Shown in pieces: positions 4,901 through 62,523 of a stretch of 64,000 nucleotides of DNA (its first letter is position 1; each line of letters begins with the position of its first letter). Position numbers and translations under genes: made by a program. The DNA is from Thermoplasmatota archaeon. Lineage in GTDB: Archaea > Thermoplasmatota > E2 > UBA202 > JdFR-43. The stretch is from positions 1,791-65,790 of the forward strand of contig JAWAYL010000003.1 of the NCBI GenBank assembly GCA_038818725.1, read 5' to 3'. The notes beneath the pieces are model-generated. The model ran no database searches. It saw only the letters and a list, made by a program, of their open reading frames with translations, and had not been told where the DNA came from.

Positions 4901-6226
4901 TTGTTTAATATTATGGCTGTTGCATTAACAATTGCTGGAAGCGATAGTGGTGGAGGAGCTGGCTTGCAGGCTGATTTGAAAACCTTTGCAGTTTTTTATG
5001 TTCATGGAATTTGTGCTTTAACAGGAATAACAATTCAAAATTCTTCAAAAATAGAAGAAATTTATGATTTGCCTCCTTCGCTTGTAAAAAAGCAGATTGA
5101 AATCCTTGCAAATGATTTTGATATAAATTCAGCTAAAACTGGAATGCTAAGAAATAGTAAAATAATAAAAGCTGTTGCAAGCATCATTTCAAAATATGAT
5201 TTTCCTCTTATTGCTGACCCTGTTATTCTTTCAAAAAGTGGATATGAACTGCTTAAGGAAGATGCAATAGATGACTTCATAAATTTTATCTTCCCTATTT
5301 CCTATCTTATAACTCCAAACAGGTATGAAGCAGAAAAGTTAAGCGGAATAAAAATAAAAAGCAAAGCAGATGTAGAAAAAGCTTTAAAAATTTTGAAGAA
5401 AAAAGGAGCAAACTCCATTTTAATAAAAGGAGGACACTTTACAAACAAAACAGATTATCTTTTTCATGAAGGAAAAATTCTTGAATATAAAGGAAAAAAT
5501 ATAGAAGGATGCAAGCATGGCGCGGGCTGCAGTTTTTCAGCAGCAATCACCGCAAATCTTGCAAAAGGAGTTGAACTTAAAGAAAGCATCAGAATAGCAA
5601 AGAATTTTATAGAATTTGCAATAAAGCATGCAGAAAAAATTAAAAAAAATTGTCCAGTAAATCAGATTTCATGGGTAGCAAAAGATGCAGAAAAATGGCG
5701 AGTTTATGAAGAATTAAAATTTTACTTAGATGAGCTTTTAAAAGAAAATATTTATGATTTAATTCCTGAAGTGGGAACAAATTTCGCATATGCTCTTCCG
5801 AAAATTTTTTTAGAAAATGAAAATGATGTTTTAGCAATTGAAGGAAGAATAATAAAAGCTGGAAAAAATTTAAGAGCTGGAGAAATAAAATTTGGGGCAT
5901 CAAAGCATTTAGCAAAAGCAATAATAAAAGCAATGGAATATGATGAAAGCATAAGATGTGCAATAAATATAAAGTATGATGAAAATTTAATAAGAAATGC
6001 TAAAAAAATTTATACTGTTTCTTCATATGATAGAAGGAAGGAGCCAAAAGAAATAAAAAATAAAGAAGGGAAAAGCATCTCATGGGGAACTGAATTTGCA
6101 ATTAAAAAAGTAGCAAAAGTGCCAGACTTAATTTTTCATAAAGGAGATGTTGGTAAGGAAGCAATGATAACAATTTTTGGAAAAAATCCTTCTGATGTGG
6201 TTGAAAAATTAAGGAAAGTAATCTAA
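4901..6226 (+). CDS. thiDN: Bifunctional ThiDN (HMP/HMP-P kinase ThiD domain fused to archaeal thiamine-phosphate synthase ThiN domain)
   Basis: N-terminus ALTIAGSDSGGGAGLQADLKT is the ThiD signature. About 440 aa, typical of archaeal ThiD-ThiN fusions. Confidence 0.8.
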   Translation: MFNIMAVALTIAGSDSGGGAGLQADLKTFAVFYVHGICALTGITIQNSSKIEEIYDLPPSLVKKQIEILANDFDINSAKTGMLRNSKIIKAVASIISKYDFPLIADPVILSKSGYELLKEDAIDDFINFIFPISYLITPNRYEAEKLSGIKIKSKADVEKALKILKKKGANSILIKGGHFTNKTDYLFHEGKILEYKGKNIEGCKHGAGCSFSAAITANLAKGVELKESIRIAKNFIEFAIKHAEKIKKNCPVNQISWVAKDAEKWRVYEELKFYLDELLKENIYDLIPEVGTNFAYALPKIFLENENDVLAIEGRIIKAGKNLRAGEIKFGASKHLAKAIIKAMEYDESIRCAINIKYDENLIRNAKKIYTVSSYDRRKEPKEIKNKEGKSISWGTEFAIKKVAKVPDLIFHKGDVGKEAMITIFGKNPSDVVEKLRKVI

Positions 6227-26285: not shown

Positions 26286-26313
26286 TTATTTATACTAAAT
26301 TTATTTTTCTTGT

Positions 26314-26398
26314 GCAGGGGTAGCCAAGCCAGGCCAACGGCGCAGGACTTAAGATCCTGTGGTGAAGTCCTTCGAGGGTTCAAATCCCTCCCCCTGCA
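26314..26398 (+). tRNA. tRNA-Leu (anticodon TAA), intron-less, long variable arm
   Basis: Acceptor GCAGGGG/CCCCTGC plus A73. Anticodon arm CAGGA-CTTAAGA-TCCTG. T-arm GAGGG-TTCAAAT-CCCTC. Confidence 0.85.
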
Positions 26399-26437
26399 TT
26401 TTCGCTAAGTTTTTATATCATTAAAATTTTCTATCCA

Positions 26438-27079
26438 ATGGAAATTTTTGAAAGAATAAAACAGGGGATTATAGTTGAAGTAGATAATGTAAAGCAGGCT
26501 ATTGAGATAGATAAGCATGCTCATGGGGTTTTTTTAAGAAATTTTGATATTGAAATGATAGAAGAAATAAAAGAAGAAGTTTCTTTGCCATTAATTGCAA
26601 GTTGCAGAGTTGGACATTTTATTGAAGCAAGAATTCTAGAAAAAATAGGCGTAGATATAATTGATGAAAGTGAGGCGGGAGATATGGAATATATAAAAAA
26701 GAAAGATTTTTCCACTCCATTTATGTGTAAAATTAATAGCATAGAGGAAGCAAAGGAGAGAATAGATGAAGGAGCAAAAATACTCAGAACAGATTTTGGA
26801 GCCCTTGAAGATGTTTTATGGCTTATAAAAGAAGGAAAGGAAAAAAAATTAAAGGCTTTGCTTTTTATTGCTCTTGAAATTGCATCTCCTGCAGATGTTG
26901 CTCTTCTTTTTCAAATTGGAGCAGATGGAATAATTATTTCCTCTAATATCTTTCGCTCTCCAAATCCGCCAAAACTCCTTGATAGTATAGTAAATGCATC
27001 TCTGAATTATAACAACATAGAAAAAATAGTTGAATTGAGCAGACAGATTAAAAAAATTCTGCCTTCTGAAGCGAAATAA
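26438..27079 (+). CDS. Degenerate PdxS (PLP synthase subunit)-like protein lacking catalytic lysines
   Basis: Collinear with PdxS (IEEIKEEVSLPLIASCRVGHFIEARILEKIGVDIIDESE; PADVALLFQIGADGIIISSNIFRS), but only 213 aa, with two internal deletions. K81->S (MAKxRIGH->ASCRVGH), K149->D (RTKGE->RTDFG), D24->E. Confidence 0.65.
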   Translation: MEIFERIKQGIIVEVDNVKQAIEIDKHAHGVFLRNFDIEMIEEIKEEVSLPLIASCRVGHFIEARILEKIGVDIIDESEAGDMEYIKKKDFSTPFMCKINSIEEAKERIDEGAKILRTDFGALEDVLWLIKEGKEKKLKALLFIALEIASPADVALLFQIGADGIIISSNIFRSPNPPKLLDSIVNASLNYNNIEKIVELSRQIKKILPSEAK

Positions 27080-27119
27080 ATATAAAGATGTTTTTAATTA
27101 TGTATTTGGAGGCTGAAAA

Positions 27120-30100
27120 ATGAAAGGAAAAGCGAAAATAGCGGTAGGAATTGTGGTGTTATTAGCGATATCTGCGATAAGCTTTGGCATAACAATGCAG
27201 CCACAGCAGAGCAAACCTATAACAAAATTGCAGAAAAAGATAAAAACAACAGATATATCTGGAAATGAAAAAATAGAAAGCTACCTTCTCGACAGCTACA
27301 TAAGGGATGATGGCGAAGAAGCTCTTTTATTTGCTGAAGGAGACGATGCTGGCTATAATGTTGATACAGGAAATGAATTTAAGAGAGCTTTGCCAATCTA
27401 TCCTGGCGAAATTAGGGATTTAGCGCCTGGAAGAAAATTCACTGGACAACTTGATCCAGGAAGGGACAATGAAGACTGGTATTCATTTTCTGTATGTGAA
27501 AAACAAAAGATAAAAGCTACGCTTACCCCCTCTTCAAACTTTGATTTACAGCTTGCAAATCCTAGCGGCTATGTTGTTGCAACTTCAGCAAATGCAGGAA
27601 ATGCTGCGGAAAGCGTTGAATTTACTGCTAACGTGACAGGTTTATGGGCAATTCGCATATATGCAGGGAGCGGAGCAAGCGCTGGCGGCTATACTTTTGA
27701 TGTTAAAATAGAGGGGCAGAACGATGCGGGCACAGGCAAGGATGCTGGAAATAGCATTTCGCAGGCAACAGCAATAACTCCTGGAACATATAATGGATAT
27801 ATGGATATGAATGACTGGGAAGATTGGTATAGCTTTAGTGTTAGTGCTGGGCAGGGAATAAAAGTAGAAATAAAACCAATGCAGAAATCAGATTTTGACA
27901 TACACCTTTATGACCCAACTGGCAAATGGGTTTATAGTGCTCAATATTATGGGAATGATACTCTTGAATATCCAGCAGATAAAAGCGGAACATGGTATAT
28001 AAAAATAGATATGTTCCCAGGATGGGATAAAAGCAAATGGCCAGAAAATTACTTCCTCTATGGCTCTGGAGTATATGAGTTAACATTAACTCTCGGTGTA
28101 TCAGCTGCGCAGCCACCAGGCCCAATTCCACAGCGTGAAATAATTCCTGTTGCACAGACATTTATTGTAAATGATAATCCAAATAGCAATAGCGATGAAT
28201 ATGCATATATAGCTGCTATACCAGCTGCAAACTATATTAAAGATGGAAAGAGATATGTTTCCCCAATTGTTTATAGAGGAGTAAATAAGCAAACTCATTG
28301 GTTTGGAACAGTTGATGATACAACTCAATATTTGCTTGATGATTGGAATACATATCTTGCAAGGCATGGAATGACAGCAAAAGAATATGTATTGAATGCG
28401 GATCCAGTTAAAGCAGCTGCTGAAATAGCAACTACAAAATGGACAAGTTCAAGCACTGCTGTTGTTACTGTAGATGGTAGCGACTTTAGCGATGAAATTA
28501 ATACAATAGTAGACAAAGATGCAACACTTATAGTTAAAACAAAGCAAATGGTTGCTCCAAAAGGAAGTTCAAAACTTAAAGATTTGGGAGGAAAGCAGGC
28601 ATTGCCAATGTTTTTGGATAAGAGCTGGGGAGCAATGACAGTCTATACACATGGCTCTGATTCGCCAGCAGTAGGAATAATAACTCCAAGATATGAGCCA
28701 GGCACTGAAGAAGATTGGCCTCATCCATATGACGCAAGAGGAGACAATACAAATATATACTTCCCTGTTTCAGTCCCAGGGTTATGGATTCCATATGTTG
28801 GTTCAAACTCCGGCGACTGGACGCTTGAAGTAACTGTTTATAGTGGAGATAGATATACAATTCCAATTTCAACAACAGATTGCAGTATAAAAGTTACTGT
28901 AACAACAGATGAGCCAAGCTATTTAGAAGTATTCCTTATTGATCCTTATGCAAATATAAGAGATCCTTCTGTGCCACACTGGAACGGTGGACCAATAAAT
29001 CCAATTCATGTATGGAATGGCGGTCATTGGGAAGGCATAGGATTTGAGAAATGGCGCAGGTGGGAGCCCACATACAGTAAAGAGCATACTGTTGAAGCTC
29101 ATTATCCAATGACAGGAAAATGGACCGCAATTGTTGCTCCTCACTATCCATATGGACAGGAAAAGACAAGCGACTCAATACCATATCATATAAAAATAGA
29201 GGTGAGGCAGCATAATCCAAAGAGAGTTAATGCTGGCTTGTCTGCTGCAAATGCTGCTGTAATTGCTTCATTGAAACATGCTCCATTGCTTTATGTAAAA
29301 GAGGATAGCATACCTCCTGAAACAACAAACGCATTGACAAAGCTTGGAGTATCAAACATAATATTTGTAAATATTGGAAAAGTCAGCTCTGTAAGCTTGC
29401 CAGGAAGTGTTACAGAATATAAGACAATGGCAGAAGTAGTTGATGCAATAAAGAAAGATCCAAAATCAGAAAATTTCATAACAATTACTTCATTTGGCAC
29501 ATTAAATGGCTATTTTGCTCCTGCAGCAATGATTGCAGCATATCATGGTTCACCTGTTTTGAGCATTGGCGAAGCAGCTGAGGCATATGATATACTTGAT
29601 AAAGCAACAACATGGCGCACATATGGTGGAGGATGGTATCACGGATGCAGAGCTCAGGGGCATTTGCCATCAATGAGTGAGCCATTTGACTGGATAGATT
29701 TCTTAAAGGATTTACTTGGAGGAAATATACCAAGCCCAGGCTTTGATTTAGAAAAAAGATGGTTTACCGCAATACATGATGGAATACATAACCTTACACT
29801 TAAATACAATCTTGATTTGCCAGGAAAGGAAGCTTATTTATTTGTTGCAGATAGAGAGGATGATATTCGCCATCTTGCAATACTTGCAATGACAGGAAAT
29901 AATTCCTATGCAGGACAAATAATATTTGACACGCCTGCAATGCAAACCGCGCTGGTATGCAGAGATATATTATATCCAGCAATAATTTATGCAAACCCAG
30001 GAAGGAATGTAACAACTTCTCAGCTGATGAACTTCCCAGATGGAAATACATGGCGCACAAATGATGGAAAATCATATTCAGTATTTTCAAGCCGTGAATT

Positions 30101-30806
30101 AAAGGCGTCATTCAGCTCACATGGAAGATTTTATGAAGGACATTGCATATGGGAAAATCTACTTAAGAGATATAATACAGGAGTAAGCATTAGCTATTAT
30201 TCCGGTCATGGAACAGGAGGAAGCGGAATTTCCGCACAGCCACGCAACTGGGCTGAAGATTTCCCACAAGCAGAGCCGAGATATGAACATTTGCATGATT
30301 TCACATGGTGGGATGGATGGCGAGGATATATGTATGATGACACTCAAACAAAAGATCCAAGATGGGGTGGATTTACATGGTATAATCCAAAAGAACCAAA
30401 TCTATATGACATAATTCACTTCAAGTGGGTTGATCAGCTATTCCAGAATTTGCACAGCGAAATAGAATTATGGATGTCATGCACAACTGGACAGCATTTT
30501 GGTCCAGACATATATCTTGAGCATGGAGCAGCACTTTGGTATGGAAATGCGGGCACAGGACTATGCCCACAGGAAGATTTGCTCGATGATTGGTGGATAC
30601 ATGATTTCCTAGTTGAAGGAAAATCAATAGGAGAAGCATTATCAACATACATATATTTGCATCAGCGCGACTATACAACAGGCGATGATTTTGCAATGTA
30701 TGGTCCATCATCAATGCAGGTTACAAATGTTCAAGTGATCTTTGGAGATCCAACACTTATATGCTATAGCCCAGAATGGGTTGAGCCAACACCAGTAGCA
30801 CCATAA
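27120..30806 (+). CDS. Large secreted protein: two PPC (pre-peptidase C-terminal) domains plus a divergent C25/gingipain-like His-Cys peptidase region
   Basis: GGAGG RBS and signal anchor MKGKAKIAVGIVVLLAISAISFG. PPC signatures EDWYSFSV...FDLQLANPSG and EDWYSFSV...FDIHLYDPTG. Candidate dyad SYYSGHGTGGSG / LWMSCTTGQ. Confidence 0.7.
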   Translation: MKGKAKIAVGIVVLLAISAISFGITMQPQQSKPITKLQKKIKTTDISGNEKIESYLLDSYIRDDGEEALLFAEGDDAGYNVDTGNEFKRALPIYPGEIRDLAPGRKFTGQLDPGRDNEDWYSFSVCEKQKIKATLTPSSNFDLQLANPSGYVVATSANAGNAAESVEFTANVTGLWAIRIYAGSGASAGGYTFDVKIEGQNDAGTGKDAGNSISQATAITPGTYNGYMDMNDWEDWYSFSVSAGQGIKVEIKPMQKSDFDIHLYDPTGKWVYSAQYYGNDTLEYPADKSGTWYIKIDMFPGWDKSKWPENYFLYGSGVYELTLTLGVSAAQPPGPIPQREIIPVAQTFIVNDNPNSNSDEYAYIAAIPAANYIKDGKRYVSPIVYRGVNKQTHWFGTVDDTTQYLLDDWNTYLARHGMTAKEYVLNADPVKAAAEIATTKWTSSSTAVVTVDGSDFSDEINTIVDKDATLIVKTKQMVAPKGSSKLKDLGGKQALPMFLDKSWGAMTVYTHGSDSPAVGIITPRYEPGTEEDWPHPYDARGDNTNIYFPVSVPGLWIPYVGSNSGDWTLEVTVYSGDRYTIPISTTDCSIKVTVTTDEPSYLEVFLIDPYANIRDPSVPHWNGGPINPIHVWNGGHWEGIGFEKWRRWEPTYSKEHTVEAHYPMTGKWTAIVAPHYPYGQEKTSDSIPYHIKIEVRQHNPKRVNAGLSAANAAVIASLKHAPLLYVKEDSIPPETTNALTKLGVSNIIFVNIGKVSSVSLPGSVTEYKTMAEVVDAIKKDPKSENFITITSFGTLNGYFAPAAMIAAYHGSPVLSIGEAAEAYDILDKATTWRTYGGGWYHGCRAQGHLPSMSEPFDWIDFLKDLLGGNIPSPGFDLEKRWFTAIHDGIHNLTLKYNLDLPGKEAYLFVADREDDIRHLAILAMTGNNSYAGQIIFDTPAMQTALVCRDILYPAIIYANPGRNVTTSQLMNFPDGNTWRTNDGKSYSVFSSRELKASFSSHGRFYEGHCIWENLLKRYNTGVSISYYSGHGTGGSGISAQPRNWAEDFPQAEPRYEHLHDFTWWDGWRGYMYDDTQTKDPRWGGFTWYNPKEPNLYDIIHFKWVDQLFQNLHSEIELWMSCTTGQHFGPDIYLEHGAALWYGNAGTGLCPQEDLLDDWWIHDFLVEGKSIGEALSTYIYLHQRDYTTGDDFAMYGPSSMQVTNVQVIFGDPTLICYSPEWVEPTPVAP

Positions 30807-49585: not shown

Positions 49586-51448
49586 TTAAGGATATCCTCC
49601 TATTTTTAAGCTTGGGTCGCCTAGCAATACCCATTCCTCAACTGTTTTACAATCAATCACATCTTTCATTGGGTCGCGAACCGCTATATAGTCAATTATT
49701 GCAGTTCCCCATGCTTCACCGAGCATATCTTTTCCTTTAGCTCCGTATGCACGGAAAAATCTCTCTTCTATGAATCCGCCAAAGTATTCAACTTCGTCCG
49801 GCACACCATTTTTGTTGTCATCATATCCACCTCCATGCCCATAGCCCAAGCCAGTGTTTCCAAAAGTGGCTATTGCTCCTTTATTTGCCATCTTCACTAA
49901 ATGCCAGCTAAAGCATTCATATGTTGGCTGATATGTCCATGGATTTTGCAGATCATCAAGCAAGCTTATATTAAATTCGCTGTTATGGCATCCTCCTATA
50001 ACTACAATTGGCTGCTTTTCTCCATTGCTAAGTAAATCCATATTGTAGGTCATCAATCCATTTACCCATGGTCCTTCTCCATTTTTGAAATGAGTTGCCC
50101 ATGCAGTTGGACTTCCATGTCCATCCATCGCAACAAAACCAAAGCCATTGCTCCAAGTTTTTATTACATTTATCCATGCAAATCTGCCAGCAAGAGGAGC
50201 AGGTTCAACATGTCCATATGTAAGGGTTCCATCAGATACATATAAACTTGTTTTAACAAACTTGCTCGCCATATAGTTATTATAGAACCAAGAAGTAGAA
50301 ACTTCTCCTTCAAAAACATCATTTCCTCCAAAAGTATCTCCTCCAATTAAAAGCATCTTTTTAAACCATTCTTTGCCATATGCATTGTTTTCATAATTAA
50401 CTATTTTATCAATCACATTCTGCAATTCCTTCAAGCTTTGACAAGCAAGTCTACCAACATATACATCTGGAGCTAAATCCAGCTTATCTTTTCCATATTT
50501 AAATGACCAAGCTCCAAAAACACCATCTCCATTTGTATCCCATGAAGAGAATGAGCCATCCGCATTATATATATCTGCAAAATATAAATCGCTTAAATAT
50601 CCAAATTCTTCCCGATCATCAAGAGCAGCATATCTTACAGGACAGTACCATAGAGCATCGTTGCTTGTTGTGGCTCCGTCCATCCCCCAGTTGCCGGTGA
50701 GATATGATCTTTTACCACCTACAAGCATAACATATTTTATTCCATATTTTTCGAGCACATCTTTTATGAAATACTTCACTTTTTCTGCACCATCCCTTCC
50801 TTCATAATTTGAATAAATGTTTTCAACCTTCTCAGAAATTACTCTTAAACCTTTTTCCTCTTTGTGTTGAATCAACCTTGCTATTTCATTTTCCCATTCT
50901 GAAGGATATATTATTAGCAAATCTTTTTCACTTTCACTCACCCCTTTATTTGGCAAATCGTGTGTAATTTTAATTTCAAAATCATTTGCTATTTCAACCA
51001 TATTCTCTTTTGCAATGTACCTCACTGGATATAAATGAATTGCAACAATCGTAGATAGCTTGCCTTCATAAAGCCCACCATATTCATTAATGGTATACCA
51101 TTCCTGTGGATATATTTCATATGCTTCACCATCCCCTTCATATTTTATATTTGTTCCATATGCGACCGCAGGCGGAGCGACAATTATGCTTGCTTTCTTC
51201 TTTTCTATTCCTTTTGGATTGCACTCTATGCTAACCTTTGTTCCAAGAGGAAACACATATGTTTTTACATAATAGGGCAACATTGGTTTTCCTGGAGATG
51301 AAGTATAGTAAGCATCGCTGTATTTTCCCCCATATATTTCCGCATATTCAATTTCTTCAAAATTTTTTGTGCTTTTTCTGTTATCCAAGCTTACAGCACT
51401 TAAAACAAGCATCATTAAAACTATTCCTGCTATACCTACTTTCCTCAT
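49586..51448 (-). CDS. Secreted peptidase C25 (gingipain-like) family protein
   Basis: Signal peptide. YVMLVGG, DVYVGRL, MDGHGSPTAW (His) and VVIGGCHNSEF (Cys), closely resembling the gingipain catalytic motifs. Confidence 0.8.
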   Translation of the reverse strand: MRKVGIAGIVLMMLVLSAVSLDNRKSTKNFEEIEYAEIYGGKYSDAYYTSSPGKPMLPYYVKTYVFPLGTKVSIECNPKGIEKKKASIIVAPPAVAYGTNIKYEGDGEAYEIYPQEWYTINEYGGLYEGKLSTIVAIHLYPVRYIAKENMVEIANDFEIKITHDLPNKGVSESEKDLLIIYPSEWENEIARLIQHKEEKGLRVISEKVENIYSNYEGRDGAEKVKYFIKDVLEKYGIKYVMLVGGKRSYLTGNWGMDGATTSNDALWYCPVRYAALDDREEFGYLSDLYFADIYNADGSFSSWDTNGDGVFGAWSFKYGKDKLDLAPDVYVGRLACQSLKELQNVIDKIVNYENNAYGKEWFKKMLLIGGDTFGGNDVFEGEVSTSWFYNNYMASKFVKTSLYVSDGTLTYGHVEPAPLAGRFAWINVIKTWSNGFGFVAMDGHGSPTAWATHFKNGEGPWVNGLMTYNMDLLSNGEKQPIVVIGGCHNSEFNISLLDDLQNPWTYQPTYECFSWHLVKMANKGAIATFGNTGLGYGHGGGYDDNKNGVPDEVEYFGGFIEERFFRAYGAKGKDMLGEAWGTAIIDYIAVRDPMKDVIDCKTVEEWVLLGDPSLKIGGYP

Positions 51449-57357: not shown

Positions 57358-60300
57358 GTGATTGAAATGGCAGCATATAAAAAAATGGGTATAATTTTTT
57401 TAAGTATATTGATGCTAACATCGACTTTTCCAGTTTATAGCGGCTCTAGCCGAGGTGAAAACCTGGAAAATAGTGAAACACTTCTGTATAAAATAAATTT
57501 TCCAGAGCCATCCCTTAAAGAAATTGAGGTGAATGGAAAAGAGTTTACTATAGTAGAGATACCTGATTGTATTAATACCGGCAAAAGTGGAGCCCCCTCC
57601 TTGCCTGTGTATGGTGTGCAGATTCTTCTTCCTTATGGAAGTGAATTAGAAGAAGTAAAAGTAAAAGGTGAAAAAACCGCGATATCAACAAATCTTAGGG
57701 GGAAACCAGTATTTCCATACCAAGAGCCTGTGCCCATTGGATATAAGGGAAAGGAATTTTTCATTGATGAAAATGCTTATAAAATTGAAAAATATCCTGA
57801 AAAAATTTACGATGTTATAGGAGTTGGATATTGTAGAGGATATGCAATACTTGCAATGAATTTATTCCCTGTAGAGTATTATCCCGTAGAAGGGGAGTTA
57901 TTTTACTATCCATTAATTGAAATAGAATTAAAATTAAATAAGAACGGTTATGTAAATGAGTTTTACAGAAATAATCCGAATGATAGAAGTTATGTTGCTT
58001 CTCTTGTAATTAACCCAGAGATATTAGATTCTTATAAAGTAAAAAGCGTATTTGAATATCCTGGAGGAATTTGCGATCCTTCACAAAATTATGACTATGT
58101 AATAATCACCAGACAGGCACTTGCAAACTTCTCCGGAAATTATACCTGGGCACATTTCATCGCAAGGAAGCAGGCGGAAGGAATTCAGGCAATAGTAGTT
58201 ACAGTAGAAGATATTGTAGCATGCCAAGCTTATTGGAACACAACTCCTATTTTTAATGATACCCCAGCAAAAATAAGGGAATTTTTGAGAGATGCTTATA
58301 TTGACTGGGGGATTGAATATGTTCTTATTGCTGGAGATAATGATGGAAGTGCTATGGTTCAAAGAAGATTGCTTCACTATGGAACAGGAGCATATGCAGA
58401 AAATGTTGACTCAGATTTATATTGGAGCAACCTTGATAATACATTCAATAGTGATATGGATAGTCAGTGGGGAGAATCAGATGATTCAGGATTCGATTTG
58501 TATTCAGAACTATTTATAGGAAGTATACCATGCGATACTGGAACAGATATTTCAAACTGGCTCACAAAAAGCTTTTATTATGCAGACTCAATGGAAAAGG
58601 ATTATCTTGAAAATGTTGGATTTTATGGAGGAGATACAGGATGGGCATGCCAAGGAGATGACTTTATGGATTTCACGTTGTATGGCACAAATAATTGGCT
58701 GGGTCCGGATCCAAATTATGATGGTCCGTGGCCAAGCTGGCTTGGCTTCCTCTATGGTTTCGACACATGGAATTTATCAAATCCAGGAATGGAATTCAAT
58801 ACAAGCGTTAGATGGACTGCTGAGCCGCCGAATCAAGGATGGCAAGGTGGCTCTGAATCTGCTGCAATTGCTGGTTTGAGAAATGCAATAAATAATAATC
58901 TCTGTGCAATTATAAATGGTATAGCCCATGCTAACGAGCATATGTCTCTGGATGTATATGATACAGAATGGGAGTCACAATATTTCAATACAAAACCATT
59001 TTTCATACATGATTACGGATGTCATTGTGGAGATATGGATGCAACAGATGATGGTGTGCTTCATTCAATGCTTTTCCATTCAAATATAGAGCTTGCTTTT
59101 GCATGCGTTTATAATACAGGATATGGATGGGGAAATTATTATTCAACAAATTCAAGTAGTGCATTGCAACAAAAATTATTCTGGGATTACATGCTCAATA
59201 CAAGCAAGTGTGGCGGAGTAATAAACTGGCGCCTTGGAAAAGCGCAAGCCTATTCAAAAGATGCAATGGCTCCTACTATAAATTGGGATCCTGGATATGA
59301 GACCTGGCGAGGAATTATCGAAAGCTGTCTGCTGTTTGGTGATCCTCATCAATTAATCAAGCCGCCAGAACTTCCAGAGCATAATGTAGGGGTTGTCTCC
59401 CTTAAAGTAGATGACCATGTTTTACCTGGTGAGCAGGTTTATATAAATGCAACTATAATAAATAGTGGCTTGAACAATGAAACAAATGTTATTGTAAGAT
59501 GTCGTATAAATGAAACAGAGATAGGAAATATAACAATTCCATTTTTCCAAAGCCAAACAATGCAAGAAGTAAGCTTTTTATGGATTCCAGCAATGGGATG
59601 GTATAATGTTGTTATAAACGTAACTATTCCAGGGGTAGAAGAAAATATCACTGTAGATAATGAAAAGAGCAAAGTTGTTGTTGCTGGGCCTGATGTCGCA
59701 GTTTCTTCAATAGATACACCTGTTTTTGCATCGGTTGGTACTATTACTGAAATAAAAGCTACTTTAAGCAATTTGGGAAAAGAGGATGAAATAGTCACCG
59801 TAAAAATAGTTGTAAACAATGTAACAGTAGATAATATTTCATTGATTTTGCAAGGGAGAAGGACAGAGAATATTTCATTGTTATGGAATCCTACCTATGA
59901 AGGATTTTATCCTGTAAAAATAGAAGTATTATGCGCAAATGATGTATATCCTGAAAATAACTTCAGAAGCAATAATGTAAATGTTGTAACTGCTTTAGGA
60001 TATGTTCTTCTTGTGGATGATGATAAAGGAGACAATTATGAAATTTATTACGAAAATGCATTGATGGCAGCTGGTTATGTTTATACTCTATGGAATAGGG
60101 ATGCGCAAGGAGTACCATCTCCTTCTTATATGGCAACATTTACAGCGGTTGTATGGTTTACTGGAGACGATTATACAACAACATTAACAGCCGAAGATAT
60201 AAATGCCCTTACAACTTATCTAAACAATGGAGGTAAATTGTTTATAACAGGCCAAGATATAGGTTTTGATATAAATACGGATCCTTTCTATAGCAATTAT

Positions 60301-62523
60301 CTACATGCTCAATATCTTGTAGATGATACAAATATTTATATCCTGAATGGGATAGCTGGTGACCCGATCGGAAATAATTTAACCATAGGCATCTCAAGTG
60401 GTGACGGGGCAAACAATCAGAATTGGCCATCTGGAATAAATCCGATAGGAGGAGCTACGCCGGTATTTCAATATTCTGGCTCATCTTATTATGGAGGAAT
60501 AAAATACGCTGGAACATATAAAGTAGTTTATTTCTCATTTGGTTTTGAAGCAATTAATAGTATGGCTCATAGAACAGAAGTTATGAGCAGAATAATGAAC
60601 TGGTTTGGGGGAGGAGGAAATGTATCAGATATTTATATAAATCCGTTGAATCTTGCATATGTAGTTGGAAGAGGAGAAATAATACATGAAAATATCGTGA
60701 TCGGAAATTCAATAAATGCAACAAGGAATCTGACATTTTCAATATCCTTACCACATGGCTTTATATTGCAATGGACTCATCAGCACGGCGGCGACGGCCA
60801 CTCAGAACTCGCCCAACCAGTAGGAGATATAGACGAAGATGGAATAAATGAATTTATTATTGGAGGATATGGAAGTGGAGGAACTTATATCTTTTCATAT
60901 GATTCATATAGTAAAACATATGTGCAAGAACATTTCTGGACACATGCTGGTGGCTCCTATAATGTGCCTTCTGGAGCTTGTGTTGTTGATTTAGATGATA
61001 ATGGTGACCTTGAGTTTGTGGTTTCGTGGGAATATAGTGGAGCAAATGGAATTCATGCTTATGATTGGAATGGAACAACGCTTACGGAGCTTGCGTGGTA
61101 TACAGGCACAGGATACGAGTTTGCATATGATGTTTATGCGTGTGATTATGACGACGATGGAGATGTTGAAGTGCTAATTGCAAATAGACCATCTTCTTCC
61201 ACTGGCTATCATGTTACTGCTTTAAGATGGAATAATACAACAAATCAATTTGAGAGAGAAATTTCATGGGGCAGTGGTCAAGCAACAGAATGTCCAATGG
61301 TATGGAGTGGAGATACTGATGGAGACGGAAAAACTGAAGTTATTGCAAGTGCTGGTACAAATACTGTATATGCTTTAAATTATCAGAACGGGAGTTGGCT
61401 GGCTACTATAGTTGCAAGTGGTCTGCCAGCTCATCCGTACGGTGTGGCATGCGGTGATTTAGATAGTGATGGGATAGATGAAATTGCTTTCGGATTAGAT
61501 GGAACACAGGCTTATATATACAAATGGAATGCAACATCTTCATCTTATCAACAGGTCTGGTACTATAATTATGCAGGAGAAAGTGATATTATAGAAGGAG
61601 TTGCAATTGGAGATGTAGATAATGATGGGCTAAAAGAAGTGGTTATTGGTCCAACTTATTTACACATTGTTAAATGGAATGGAACAGCATACAAAGAAGT
61701 TGCTACAATAACTGAAACCCAAGGAATGCTCGCTGGAGTAAATGTTGGAGATTTTGACAGCGATGGGAAAAATGAAATTAAAGCTTGTGACATTTTATCA
61801 GATGTGGGTAAGGAATGGATATTTGAGTATATAGAAGAGCCAAATTGGATTTTAATAAATCCAACGAATGGAACACTTCAGCCTGGACAAGAAATAAATA
61901 TATCTCTAACTATCAATACAGCAAATCTTGAGAATTTAACAAAAATTTATTTGCAGATAAATACAAATGATCCAGATGAAGCTATAATCCGCCTACCACT
62001 CTATATTTCTGTATTAAATGAAATAACCCATAACTTCTCCTTAGTTAATCCTTGGAACTTAATTACAATTCCAGTTTTAGCAAATTTAACTGCAAAAAGC
62101 TTAATTGAAAATATCTCAGCTTGTAATGTTGTTGTAAGATGGGATCCAATAAATCAAAGCTATAAAATATATACAGCAGGAATGCCAGAGCAATATAATT
62201 TTGCTTTAATTCCAGGAAATGGCTATTTTGTTGGATTAAATAATCAAGCAAATTACTCAATTACAGGAATGCCAATAAGTAGTGTAGAAGTAAATTTAAG
62301 TGTTGGATGGAATATGATAGGATGGTTTAAAGATTCAACAAATGCAAAGAGCTTAATGCAAAATATAACATCATGCAATATTGTATGCAAATGGGATGCA
62401 ATAAATCAGAAATATAAAGTATATGTGCAGGGAATGCCAGATTCATATAACTTTGCTATAAACAGAGGAGATGGAGTATTTGTAAGCGTTACTCAGCCAA
62501 GCATATGGCATGGAGAGGGATAA
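57358..62523 (+). CDS. Giant (1721 aa) secreted multidomain protein with many domains (listed in evidence)
   Basis: Domains: C25-like peptidase region, two CARDB-like domains, an alpha/beta module, seven FG-GAP/VCBS repeats, and two novel C-terminal tandem repeats. Signal peptide MAAYKKMGIIFLSILMLTSTFPVYSG. Candidate His AHANEHM and Cys DYGCHCGD. FG-GAP motifs GDIDEDGINE, VDLDDNGDLE, CDYDDDGDVE, GDTDGDGKTE, GDLDSDGIDE, GDVDNDGLKE, GDFDSDGKNE. Confidence 0.8.
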   Translation: MIEMAAYKKMGIIFLSILMLTSTFPVYSGSSRGENLENSETLLYKINFPEPSLKEIEVNGKEFTIVEIPDCINTGKSGAPSLPVYGVQILLPYGSELEEVKVKGEKTAISTNLRGKPVFPYQEPVPIGYKGKEFFIDENAYKIEKYPEKIYDVIGVGYCRGYAILAMNLFPVEYYPVEGELFYYPLIEIELKLNKNGYVNEFYRNNPNDRSYVASLVINPEILDSYKVKSVFEYPGGICDPSQNYDYVIITRQALANFSGNYTWAHFIARKQAEGIQAIVVTVEDIVACQAYWNTTPIFNDTPAKIREFLRDAYIDWGIEYVLIAGDNDGSAMVQRRLLHYGTGAYAENVDSDLYWSNLDNTFNSDMDSQWGESDDSGFDLYSELFIGSIPCDTGTDISNWLTKSFYYADSMEKDYLENVGFYGGDTGWACQGDDFMDFTLYGTNNWLGPDPNYDGPWPSWLGFLYGFDTWNLSNPGMEFNTSVRWTAEPPNQGWQGGSESAAIAGLRNAINNNLCAIINGIAHANEHMSLDVYDTEWESQYFNTKPFFIHDYGCHCGDMDATDDGVLHSMLFHSNIELAFACVYNTGYGWGNYYSTNSSSALQQKLFWDYMLNTSKCGGVINWRLGKAQAYSKDAMAPTINWDPGYETWRGIIESCLLFGDPHQLIKPPELPEHNVGVVSLKVDDHVLPGEQVYINATIINSGLNNETNVIVRCRINETEIGNITIPFFQSQTMQEVSFLWIPAMGWYNVVINVTIPGVEENITVDNEKSKVVVAGPDVAVSSIDTPVFASVGTITEIKATLSNLGKEDEIVTVKIVVNNVTVDNISLILQGRRTENISLLWNPTYEGFYPVKIEVLCANDVYPENNFRSNNVNVVTALGYVLLVDDDKGDNYEIYYENALMAAGYVYTLWNRDAQGVPSPSYMATFTAVVWFTGDDYTTTLTAEDINALTTYLNNGGKLFITGQDIGFDINTDPFYSNYLHAQYLVDDTNIYILNGIAGDPIGNNLTIGISSGDGANNQNWPSGINPIGGATPVFQYSGSSYYGGIKYAGTYKVVYFSFGFEAINSMAHRTEVMSRIMNWFGGGGNVSDIYINPLNLAYVVGRGEIIHENIVIGNSINATRNLTFSISLPHGFILQWTHQHGGDGHSELAQPVGDIDEDGINEFIIGGYGSGGTYIFSYDSYSKTYVQEHFWTHAGGSYNVPSGACVVDLDDNGDLEFVVSWEYSGANGIHAYDWNGTTLTELAWYTGTGYEFAYDVYACDYDDDGDVEVLIANRPSSSTGYHVTALRWNNTTNQFEREISWGSGQATECPMVWSGDTDGDGKTEVIASAGTNTVYALNYQNGSWLATIVASGLPAHPYGVACGDLDSDGIDEIAFGLDGTQAYIYKWNATSSSYQQVWYYNYAGESDIIEGVAIGDVDNDGLKEVVIGPTYLHIVKWNGTAYKEVATITETQGMLAGVNVGDFDSDGKNEIKACDILSDVGKEWIFEYIEEPNWILINPTNGTLQPGQEINISLTINTANLENLTKIYLQINTNDPDEAIIRLPLYISVLNEITHNFSLVNPWNLITIPVLANLTAKSLIENISACNVVVRWDPINQSYKIYTAGMPEQYNFALIPGNGYFVGLNNQANYSITGMPISSVEVNLSVGWNMIGWFKDSTNAKSLMQNITSCNIVCKWDAINQKYKVYVQGMPDSYNFAINRGDGVFVSVTQPSIWHGEG

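What the first reader, a model, noticed from the sequence alone, without database searches (positions are those of the whole stretch)
26438..27079. Truncated PdxS homolog missing both catalytic lysines (candidate pseudoenzyme)
Alignment to B. subtilis or M. jannaschii PdxS is collinear. It shows the Schiff-base Lys (MAKxRIGH) replaced by Ser (ASCRVGH), the second catalytic Lys (RTKGE) replaced by Asp (RTDFG), loss of the GTG phosphate loop, and two deletions (about 20 and 60 aa). The (beta/alpha)8 phosphate-binding C-terminal segment (GADGIIISSNIFRS) is retained. The ORF is intact, with its own start directly after tRNA-Leu and no pdxT neighbour. It looks like a maintained inactive paralog, comparable to plant PDX1.2, rather than a decaying pseudogene.
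Basis: partly seen in the sequence, partly recalled or inferred. Interest (0 to 1): 0.55.

Follow-up and report, generated by a model that had tools for sequence, protein, structure and literature searches.

The report
Dead, stripped-down PdxS barrel in archaea
This gene encodes a shrunken copy of the vitamin-B6 synthase subunit PdxS that can no longer make vitamin B6, yet hot-vent Thermoplasmatota archaea keep it intact, so it must do some other, still unknown job.

Summary
The ORF at 26438..27079 (+, 213 aa) is real and is a PdxS homologue (Pfam SOR_SNZ 1.3e-28; profile-profile E 8.6e-38; predicted fold matches PdxS structures at E 1e-20). It falls far below the NCBIfam PdxS cut-offs (150 bits against 395 and 438).

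Both catalytic lysines are gone. K81 is Ser in 26 of 26 family members. K149 is not Lys in 25 of 26. The glycines that hold the ribose-5-phosphate phosphate are replaced by Phe/Trp, Leu and Ser in all 26. The accessory elements are missing or cut back: aN absent, the a2' region shortened, a6'/a6'' and the C-terminal tail deleted. An 8-stranded barrel remains (pLDDT 93.6).

It is not a pseudogene. ORFs are intact in about 20 lineages (47-100% identity), dN/dS is about 0.10-0.12, and a TATA box sits at a fixed distance upstream. All members come from Thermoplasmatota MAGs, many named after hydrothermal sites.

The comparison with plant PDX1.2 holds only in part. The ring-to-ring interface is deleted, and I could not test whether the same genomes carry a canonical pdxS/pdxT.

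My best reading is a selectively maintained, non-catalytic PdxS-derived barrel, possibly still ring-forming. Its partner or ligand is unknown.

The parts
26313..26399 (+). tRNA-Leu (anticodon UAA) immediately upstream. A tRNA, called tRNA-Leu where the anticodon could be read, is found at or near this syntenic position in many family loci.
   Evidence: ARAGORN in window, L001 and L011 and in L021, L024 and L026. Rfam finds intron-containing tRNAs in L016 and L023. tRNA 3' ends are visible directly upstream in L008 and L018.
26410..26417 (+). TATA-box-like element TTTTTATA, 21-28 nt before the ATG. This implies an own promoter and a leaderless or near-leaderless mRNA (inference).
   Evidence: TTTTTATA or a one-base variant sits at about the same distance from the ATG in 17 of 18 loci compared. 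The exception is L021, where the tRNA abuts the ATG.
26438..27079 (+). CDS of the 213-aa minimal PdxS-like (b/a)8 barrel
   Evidence: dN/dS about 0.1.
26600..26602 (+). Codon AGT = Ser55, which replaces the Schiff-base Lys81 of PdxS
   Evidence: Sequence, alignments. Ser in 26/26 family members.
26792..26797 (+). Codons GAT TTT = Asp119-Phe120, which replace Lys149-Gly150 of PdxS (RTKG becomes RTDF)
   Evidence: At the K149 position the family has E13 D5 P4 S2 A1 K1. At the G150 position it has F19 W7.
26873..26875 (+). Codon for Leu146, which replaces Gly213 of the phosphate cradle (b7 C-terminal end)
   Evidence: Leu in 26/26 family members.
26939..26944 (+). Codons for Ser168-Ser169 (b8 end), which replace Gly235-Ser236 of PdxS
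   Evidence: G235 is Ser in 26/26.
27072..27086 (+). Conserved promoter-like motif cgAAATAAATATAAA of the downstream gene. It overlaps the last codons and the stop codon of the PdxS-like gene.
   Evidence: In three loci the motif lies away from the stop codon, yet still 20-21 nt before the GGAGG (L001, L004, L012). A shortened form overlapping the stop is seen in most other loci.
27108..27112 (+). GGAGG Shine-Dalgarno motif, 7 nt before the ATG of the downstream gene
   Evidence: Present in 15 of 18 loci.
27120..30806 (+). Conserved downstream neighbour: a 1228-aa exported protein with two PPC domains and a C-terminal clan-CD (gingipain-like) peptidase fold. It is context only and is not shown to be functionally linked.
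   Evidence: Pfam PPC. Orthologue directly downstream, where the contig extends far enough, in L001, L004, L008-L011, L014, L016, L018 and L025. AF2 plus Foldseek: gingipain R E 5e-5, then separases. The H-G motif is invariant and the S-C motif nearly so (Cys at least 90%) in 30 orthologues.

Best explanation
This is a lineage-specific paralogue of the PLP-synthase subunit PdxS, reduced to the bare (b/a)8 barrel. It has lost the ability to make PLP, yet selection keeps it as a working protein in Thermoplasmatota MAGs, many of them from hydrothermal sites.

Shown:
- It is homologous to PdxS, and its predicted fold is a complete 8-stranded PdxS barrel.
- Ser replaces the R5P-imine lysine in every member.
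- The second relay lysine is replaced in 25 of 26 members, and that position varies freely.
- The glycine cradle for the R5P phosphate is replaced by Phe/Trp, Leu and Ser in every member.
- The accessory elements are missing or cut back: aN (PdxT docking) absent, the a2' lid region shortened by about 16 residues, a6'/a6'' (ring-ring contacts) and the C-terminal tail deleted.
- Purifying selection is strong, and the gene has its own conserved TATA box.

Inferred:
- The P1 pocket is filled in, so the protein neither binds R5P in the canonical way nor docks the glutaminase.
- The inter-subunit Arg/His...Asp network that PdxS uses to build its hexameric ring is invariant (window R57, H60, D153). 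Helices a3 and a7 are the most conserved parts. The protein therefore probably still assembles laterally into a single ring or a smaller oligomer and acts through protein-protein contacts rather than catalysis.
- The partner is unknown. My sub-probabilities are: not a PLP synthase 0.95; functional, selected gene 0.95; acts non-catalytically 0.55; still oligomerises like a PdxS ring 0.5.
For: Homology and fold.

Catalytic and phosphate-site replacements counted over 26 family sequences: (alignments).

Role of the two lysines (lysine relay, K98/K166 in Arabidopsis) as described in 10.1101/717082.

Deleted elements and their roles are taken from PMC11708016. aN is instrumental for PdxT binding, aN and a2' shield the active site, and the AA/BB ring-ring contacts lie on a6/a6'. 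The AB ring contacts R90/H93-D227 map to the invariant window residues R57/H60-D153.

Selection: dN/dS 0.10-0.12 for the unsaturated pairs, and intact ORFs in all complete loci.

Own promoter element.

Narrow but real family: 18 clusters at 90% identity. Only about 5 representatives at 50% identity, followed by a sharp score drop to canonical PdxS in an exhaustive HMM search of 1.84 billion proteins. 13 GTDB species representatives, all Thermoplasmatota.
Against: - There is no experimental or structural evidence for the oligomeric state. AF2 was run on the monomer only.
- R57, H60 and D153 are also conserved in canonical PdxS, so they could be retained for fold reasons.
- Several polar pocket residues remain invariant (D76=D102, S78=S104, R117=R147, T118, with E14 in 22/26, plus the new S55). 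A purely structural protein need not keep them, which leaves room for a new ligand or a new activity.
- The E98-R233 ring salt bridge is changed to K/R65 and Q159, and the b4-a4 interface loop is 4 residues shorter, so even ring formation is uncertain.
- I could not establish whether a canonical PdxS/PdxT exists in these genomes.
Confidence: 0.5

Rival explanations
1. PDX1.2-like pseudoenzyme. The short protein co-assembles with the organism's catalytic PdxS into mixed rings and tunes or stabilises PLP synthase, for example at high temperature.
For: It descends from PdxS and has lost both lysines, as PDX1.2 has (K98R, K166Q). The ring-interface residues R57/H60/D153 and helices a3 and a7 are invariant. 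Many family MAGs carry hydrothermal-site isolate names, and PDX1.2 is heat-induced.
Against: - PDX1.2 keeps its full length and unchanged interfaces. Here a6'/a6'', which carry all ring-ring contacts, are deleted, the interface loop T115-Y121 is shortened, and the E98-R233 pair is changed to K/R and Q. A K/R facing the canonical R233 would be unfavourable.
- Identity to canonical PdxS is only about 30-33%.
- No canonical pdxS or pdxT was found in the window or in about 200 kb of related loci. Co-occurrence in the genomes was not tested.
Confidence: 0.18
2. Neofunctionalised barrel. The remodelled pocket (S55, D76, S78, R117, T118, C97, E14) binds a new, probably non-phosphorylated, ligand or catalyses a lysine-independent reaction.
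For: Polar residues at the catalytic face stay invariant across 47-100% identity, and the Lys-to-Ser change is fixed in 26/26 rather than drifting. Selection is strong. TIM barrels readily evolve new activities (general knowledge).
Against: - Most of the retained pocket residues are simply inherited from PdxS.
- The only fixed novelties are Ser, Ile, Phe/Trp, Leu and Ser, which look like pocket filling rather than a new catalytic set.
- The K149 position varies freely.
- There is no metabolic gene context. The neighbours are a tRNA, a Zn-ribbon protein and an exported peptidase.
- The protein matches no other enzyme family.
Confidence: 0.22
3. Accessory factor of the adjacent exported clan-CD (gingipain-like) peptidase, for example a cytoplasmic chaperone, maturation factor or regulator.
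For: The peptidase gene follows 30-60 bp downstream on the same strand across nearly the whole family: window, L001, L004, L008-L011, L014, L016, L018 and L025. In L023 the downstream gene is a different clan-CD peptidase, a true Pfam C25.
Against: - The peptidase gene has its own conserved promoter-like motif.
- The peptidase family is much larger (at least 268 clusters) and occurs without a short PdxS upstream in CP070836.1 and in MBG-D SAG AB-539-N05.
- In L024 the downstream gene is a small PGF-CTERM protein instead, and in L026 no such downstream gene signals are seen.
- The window carries at least two more C25 genes, so adjacency to one is not improbable.
- The promoter overlaps the stop codon, which can explain the persistent linkage without any shared function.
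Confidence: 0.08
4. Decaying pseudogene or gene-calling artefact.
For: The protein is truncated relative to PdxS, lacks the catalytic residues and fails the NCBIfam equivalog cut-offs. One sister contig (L028 / P0054) carries only the first 72 residues, fused to unrelated sequence.
Against: - dN/dS is about 0.1, and ORFs are intact with the same deletions in all other loci.
- The AF2 model is confident and complete.
- A promoter element is conserved.
- L028 looks chimeric, because GC rises from 0.35 to 0.51 at the contig end.
Confidence: 0.02

Closest known systems
PdxS / Pdx1 / SNZ, the lyase (synthase) subunit of glutamine-dependent PLP synthase (Pfam PF01680 SOR_SNZ; NCBIfam NF003215, TIGR00343)
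   Same: - Clear homology and a collinear alignment.
- The same (b/a)8 barrel with a8' and a8''.
- Retained motifs: CR[IV]GHFxEA, IDES, PFxC, EGAxxxRT, A[TS]PAD, FxSxNP.
- Retained D102, S104, R147, R138 and K118 (B. subtilis numbering).
   Different: - 213 aa instead of about 294 aa.
- K81 is Ser and K149 is Asp/Glu or another non-Lys residue.
- The GEPGTG loop, the segment carrying K187, aN, a6'/a6'' and the C-terminal tail are absent. The a2' region is shortened.
- The phosphate-cradle glycines are replaced by bulky residues.
- It scores 150 bits against cut-offs of 395 and 438.
- No pdxT lies nearby.
Plant PDX1.2, a non-catalytic PDX1 paralogue (pseudoenzyme) that co-assembles with PDX1.1/1.3
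   Same: A PdxS-family paralogue that has lost both relay lysines and is nevertheless kept by selection.
   Different: - PDX1.2 is full length, forms the same stacked dodecamer with unchanged interfaces, and has a documented catalytic partner (10.1101/717082).
- Here the ring-ring interface and all accessory helices are deleted.
- The substitutions differ (K to S and D/E, rather than R and Q).
- Identity to catalytic PdxS is about 30%.
- No partner is known.
- The origin is independent and archaeal.
Other lysine-less or shortened PdxS-like proteins seen in the exhaustive search (for example P0072 K81C, P0060 K81N, P0050/P0085 K81Q, P0146 of 231 aa with K149V)
   Same: They show that loss of the catalytic lysines in PdxS paralogues has happened repeatedly.
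   Different: They are separate lineages with different lengths and different substitutions. None has the combined set of deletions or the IASCRxGH motif of this family.

Membership tests
PdxS (PLP synthase lyase subunit, NCBIfam NF003215 / TIGR00343 equivalogs) | Whole-protein score at or above the curated equivalog cut-off | tested here: not met
   149.9 bits against a cut-off of 395, and 148.9 against 438.45.
PdxS (PLP synthase lyase subunit) | Schiff-base lysine on b3 (Lys81 in B. subtilis) that forms the imine with ribose 5-phosphate | tested here: not met
   Ser55 in the window, and Ser in 26/26 family members.
PdxS (PLP synthase lyase subunit) | Second relay lysine on b6 (Lys149) | tested here: not met
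   Asp119 in the window. The family has E13 D5 P4 S2 A1 K1.
PdxS (PLP synthase lyase subunit) | Glycine-rich phosphate cradle (b6-a6 GEPGTG loop, G213/G214, G235-S236-G237) | tested here: not met
   The loop is deleted or replaced (G150 is F or W). G213 is Leu and G235 is Ser in 26/26, and G214 and G237 are variable.
PdxS (PLP synthase lyase subunit) | N-terminal aN helix that docks the glutaminase PdxT, and a pdxT gene adjacent or in the genome | tested here: not met
   About 17-25 N-terminal residues are missing. No PdxT homologue is found in the window or in about 200 kb of related loci. The rest of the genome could not be tested.
PdxS (PLP synthase lyase subunit) | (b/a)8 barrel of the PdxS type | tested here: met
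   AF2 pLDDT 93.6 with eight strands. Foldseek top 50 hits are all PdxS/Pdx1, E about 1e-20.
Pfam PF01680 SOR_SNZ (homologous superfamily level) | Score above the Pfam gathering threshold | tested here: met
   100.6 bits against 27, E 1.3e-28. Only residues 27-119 match the model.
PDX1.2-type PdxS pseudoenzyme | PdxS paralogue without the catalytic lysines, under purifying selection | tested here: met
PDX1.2-type PdxS pseudoenzyme | Full-length architecture with conserved subunit interfaces that allow co-assembly into the dodecamer | tested here: not met
   a6'/a6'' (all AA/BB contacts) are deleted, the b4-a4 loop is shortened, and E98-R233 is changed. Only the R/H-D ring network is kept.
PDX1.2-type PdxS pseudoenzyme | A catalytic PdxS paralogue in the same genome, and a physical hetero-complex with it | not testable with these tools
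The canonical query P0019 proved to be from Zixibacteria. No whole-genome access.

The most novel reading that the evidence does not exclude
This would be the first prokaryotic PdxS-derived pseudoenzyme family: a natural 'minimal barrel' that still forms PdxS-type rings. It would either cap or modulate the catalytic PLP synthase of Thermoplasmatota living at hydrothermal sites, or have been recruited as a ring scaffold or ligand sensor for an unrelated process. Either way it would be an origin independent of plant PDX1.2.
Probability: 0.3. Interest if true: 0.6.

Novelty: new variant of a known kind. Interest (0 to 1): 0.42.

Why it matters
The only PdxS-family pseudoenzyme that my literature searches turned up is plant PDX1.2, which is described as restricted to eudicots. 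A 2023 survey of PLP pathways in 5840 bacterial and 288 archaeal species does not discuss inactive PdxS paralogues in the passages I searched.

There is a practical consequence. At least one source already names a member 'pyridoxal 5'-phosphate synthase pdxS subunit' (P0008), and the protein passes the Pfam threshold. Pathway reconstructions for these MAGs can therefore wrongly score de novo vitamin-B6 synthesis as present.

Conceptually, the family is a natural deletion experiment. It shows which parts of PdxS are dispensable for a stable barrel and which residues selection keeps once catalysis is gone.

Tried and rejected
1. Co-occurrence with canonical PdxS. I used P0019, the only canonical PdxS that shared words with the query, as a seed to find the lineage's own PdxS. 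It turned out to be a Zixibacteria-type protein and none of its 120 best hits were Thermoplasmatota.
It found only the short genes.
3. The afdb50 fold library was not available.
4. A sequence profile of the neighbour's C-terminal domain against the PDB found nothing. NCBIfam found nothing either. Only the predicted structure linked it to gingipain and separase.
5. BLASTP between the window's 1228-aa protein and the true C25 peptidase downstream in L023 showed no similarity, so they are not orthologues.
6. PADLOC gave no defence-system hit for the short protein or the peptidase. The Zn-ribbon neighbour had only weak hits (E about 5e-3), which I judge to be noise.
7. Co-transcription with the downstream gene was considered. 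I rated it unlikely after finding a conserved promoter-like motif for that gene.
8. The pseudogene reading was rejected on dN/dS and intact ORFs.
9. Literature searches for prokaryotic PdxS pseudoenzymes, or for PLP synthesis in Thermoprofundales, returned nothing specific.

Full report
**1. The observation**

The window holds an intact ATG-started ORF at 26438..27079 on the + strand, 213 aa long. It begins 38 nt after tRNA-Leu(UAA) at 26313..26399.

It is a PdxS homologue well beyond chance:
- Pfam SOR_SNZ E 1.3e-28, with only residues 27-119 matching the model.
- phmmer against solved PdxS/Pdx1 chains, E about 1e-35, in two collinear stretches.
- Profile-profile comparison of the family (A2) against canonical PdxS (A4): probability 99.95%, E 8.6e-38.

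It fails the NCBIfam PdxS equivalog cut-offs by a wide margin, scoring 150 bits against 395 and 438.

In the motif P-x-I-A-S-C-R-x-G-H-F the Ser (Ser55, codon 26600..26602) occupies the place of the Schiff-base Lys81 (B. subtilis numbering). In E-G-A-x-x-L-R-T-D the Asp (Asp119, 26792..26794) occupies the place of Lys149.

Two details need correcting:
- The internal deletions are about 16 aa, 4 aa and about 35 aa. A further 17-25 residues are missing at the N-terminus and about 15 at the C-terminus.
- The 'retained phosphate-binding segment' has in fact lost its phosphate-binding glycines.

**2. It is a family, not a one-off**

The word-indexed search found 18 clusters of 207-221 aa proteins, down to 47% identity. 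Where a source names the organism, it is Thermoplasmatota, Thermoplasmata or Thermoplasmatales.

An exhaustive HMM search of 1.84 billion cluster representatives found only about five representatives of this type. Scores then drop sharply, from 208 to 146 bits, to canonical PdxS.

A scan of one genome per GTDB species found 13 loci. All are Thermoplasmatota MAGs, and many isolate names point to hydrothermal sites, for example AUK*, HyVt-387, Dive96 and M10.

The downstream neighbour has a 54%-identical homologue in the MBG-D single-cell genome AB-539-N05. Thermoprofundales (MBG-D) subgroups B and D are vent thermophiles (PMC9585477). I therefore infer, without having shown it, that the lineage lies in or near Thermoprofundales.

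**3. Not a pseudogene**

Every locus not cut by a contig end has an intact ORF with the same set of deletions. Nei-Gojobori dN/dS is 0.10-0.12 for the four pairs whose dS is not saturated: win/L001, win/L011, L001/L011 and L004/L012.

A TATA-like element (TTTTTATA or a one-base variant; window 26410..26417) lies 21-28 nt before the ATG in the window, and at about the same distance in 17 of 18 loci. For an archaeon this suggests an own promoter and a leaderless mRNA, which is an inference.

The one aberrant copy, L028/P0054, has 72 N-terminal residues fused to an unrelated C-terminus that looked to me like a sugar-isomerase (SIS-type) domain. That resemblance is by eye and was not tested. The copy sits on a contig whose GC rises from 0.35 to 0.51 at the end, so it is probably chimeric.

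**4. Anatomy**

AlphaFold2 with the 16-sequence family alignment gives a confident model (pLDDT 93.6, pTM 0.90). It has eight b-strands, the barrel helices, a8', a8'' and a short N-terminal helix. The best 50 Foldseek hits in the PDB are all PdxS/Pdx1 (E about 1e-20, TMq about 0.8). The model places strand b2 at residues 30-33, so the 16-aa deletion most likely removes the a2' lid region rather than b2.

Residues counted over 26 family sequences, in B. subtilis numbering:

| Canonical residue | In the short family |
|---|---|
| K81 | S in 26/26 |
| M79 | I in 26/26 |
| K149 | E13, D5, P4, S2, A1, K1 |
| G150 | F or W in 26/26 |
| G213 | L in 26/26 |
| G235 | S in 26/26 |
| G214, G237 | variable |
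| D24 | E22, S4 |
| H115, R137, E105 | variable |

The segment that carries K187 in canonical PdxS lies in the deleted stretch (K187's role in the P2 site is from my own knowledge of PdxS). Retained from PdxS are D102, S104, R147, T148, R138, K118, R83, H86, P218 and D220.

The chemistry of PLP synthesis rests on the two-lysine relay (described in 10.1101/717082). That relay is gone, and bulky side chains now occupy the glycine cradle that holds the R5P phosphate. I conclude with high confidence that this protein is not a PLP synthase.

**5. What the deletions remove**

The native M. acetivorans PdxS structure paper (PMC11708016) assigns these roles:
- aN is instrumental for PdxT docking.
- aN and a2' shield the active site.
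- The ring-to-ring (AA/BB) contacts lie on a6 and a6'.
- The in-ring (AB) contacts include R90 and H93 to D227, E98 to R233, D118 to K172, the protruding loop T115-Y121, and hydrophobic a3 to a7/a8'' packing.

I mapped these onto the window protein with the alignment (chain index plus 10):
- R90, H93 and D227 correspond to R57, H60 and D153. H60 and D153 are invariant, and R57 is Arg in 25 of 26.
- E98 and R233 correspond to K/R65 and Q159, so this pair is changed.
- The T115-Y121 loop is four residues shorter.
- Every ring-ring contact falls in the deleted segment.

The conserved core of the family is b3-a3-b4 and a7-b8-a8'. This pattern fits a protein that may still associate side by side but cannot form the double ring or bind PdxT. 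This step is inference. I could not run multimer predictions.

**6. Genomic context**

Upstream genes vary between loci. They include a 126-aa Zn-ribbon protein, a 330-aa gene of unknown function, ApbA and PAP2. A tRNA, called tRNA-Leu where the anticodon could be read, lies directly upstream in most clades.

Downstream, on the same strand and 30-60 bp away, almost every locus has the orthologue of the window's 1228-aa protein at 27120..30806. Identity to the window protein runs from 93% down to about 52%. This protein has:
- an N-terminal signal sequence or membrane anchor;
- two PPC domains;
- a C-terminal domain whose AF2 model (pLDDT 68) best matches gingipain R (E 5e-5), then separases;
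- an H-G motif that is invariant and an S-C motif that is nearly so (Cys at least 90%) in 30 orthologues, a pairing I recognise from clan-CD peptidases.

In L023 the downstream gene is instead a bona fide Pfam C25 peptidase. In L024 it is a small PGF-CTERM protein.

Three points weaken a functional link between the two genes:
- The peptidase gene has its own conserved promoter-like motif, cgAAATAAATATAAA. It lies 20-21 nt before a GGAGG and overlaps the stop codon of the short gene in most loci. This overlap can also explain the conserved C-terminal ...AK.
- The peptidase family is far larger, with at least 268 clusters, and occurs without a short PdxS upstream in CP070836.1 and in the MBG-D SAG.
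- The window alone has at least two more C25 genes.

I therefore treat the adjacency as conserved synteny, not as evidence of shared function.

**7. Comparison with what is known**

The protein belongs to the SOR/SNZ homologous family but fails every catalytic criterion for PdxS.

The nearest functional analogy is plant PDX1.2, which has K98R and K166Q. PDX1.2, however, is full length, builds the same dodecamer, has unchanged interfaces and has known catalytic partners. This protein differs on all those points, and its partner, if any, is unknown.

Other lysine-less PdxS-like proteins turned up in the exhaustive search: K81 to C, N, Q, M or R, and a 231-aa form with K149V. Loss of the lysines is therefore recurrent in this family. 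None of those proteins shares this family's architecture.

My literature searches turned up no description of a prokaryotic PdxS pseudoenzyme.

**8. Verdict**

The interpretation 'maintained inactive paralogue' is supported. 'Comparable to PDX1.2' is only loosely true.

My best explanation, at confidence 0.5, is a selectively maintained, non-catalytic, possibly ring-forming PdxS-derived barrel with an unknown partner. The rivals are:
- a new ligand or enzymatic function (0.22);
- a PDX1.2-like modulator of a canonical PdxS (0.18);
- an accessory factor of the neighbouring exported peptidase (0.08);
- a pseudogene or artefact (0.02).

The key untested point is whether the same genomes encode canonical pdxS/pdxT.

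I rate this a new variant of a known kind, of moderate interest. It also has a practical annotation consequence, because these genes can be mistaken for pdxS in metabolic reconstructions (P0008 already carries that name).

Noticed in passing
window 27120..30806 (+): 1228-aa exported protein with two PPC domains. The predicted fold of its C-terminal 428 aa best matches gingipain R and separases (clan CD), with an invariant H-G motif and a nearly invariant S-C motif (Cys at least 90%). Sequence methods (Pfam C25, NCBIfam, a PDB profile) miss it. The family is large, with at least 268 clusters in Thermoplasmatota, and includes MBG-D SAG AB-539-N05.
   Followed up: partly
window 27072..27086, and the same position in L001, L004, L012 and others: Conserved motif cgAAATAAATATAAA, 20-21 nt before the GGAGG and ATG of the peptidase gene. 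It overlaps the stop codon of the PdxS-like gene in most loci. It is probably the peptidase gene's BRE/TATA promoter, and it likely explains why the short protein's C-terminus ends in ...AK.
   Followed up: partly
L017, L019, L020, L021, L022, L027 (contig ends): In six of the 13 GTDB-representative loci the contig ends about 90-190 bp after the short gene (or, in L027, inside it). That is at or just inside the start of the peptidase gene. This looks like an assembly break point, perhaps caused by paralogous or strain-variable peptidase genes.
   Followed up: no
L028 6001..6771 (= P0054): A 256-aa ORF. Its first 72 residues belong to the short PdxS family and are fused in frame to an unrelated C-terminus that looks by eye like a sugar-isomerase (SIS-type) domain. 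GC rises to 0.51 at the contig end, so this is probably a chimeric contig rather than a real gene disruption.
   Followed up: partly
L016 3644..3756; L023 2292..2406; L021 5907..5988; L024 970..1053; L026 62..147: The tRNA upstream of the short gene is conserved in position. In L016 and L023 it is 113-115 nt long (intron-containing), found by Rfam but missed by ARAGORN. ARAGORN reports different Leu anticodons (taa, gag, cag) at this syntenic position in different clades.
   Followed up: partly
L021 5980..6000: Here the tRNA 3' end lies 3 nt from the ATG of the short gene. The TATA box is missing and the protein is about 8 residues shorter at the N-terminus. Expression would have to come from the tRNA promoter.
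   Followed up: no
proteins P0072, P0060, P0050, P0085, P0133, P0146, P0023, P0041, P0051 (one search hits): Other PdxS-like proteins lack one or both catalytic lysines or carry other deletions: K81 to C, N, Q, M or R; a 231-aa form with K149V; a 568-aa tandem double PdxS-like protein with K to R in both halves; and 286-287-aa forms lacking a2'. Lysine loss in PdxS paralogues is recurrent.
   Followed up: no
window 49586..51448 (-), 57358..62523 (+), 4901..6226 (+): Two further C25-type peptidase genes, one of 1721 aa with a C25 propeptide, CARDB and FG-GAP repeats. There is also a ThiD-ThiN fusion (HMP-P kinase plus thiamine-phosphate synthase). The peptidases fit a protein-degrading Thermoprofundales-like lifestyle.
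   Followed up: no
P0008: One member of the short family is named 'pyridoxal 5'-phosphate synthase pdxS subunit' by JGI. This is an annotation that over-calls function.
   Followed up: no
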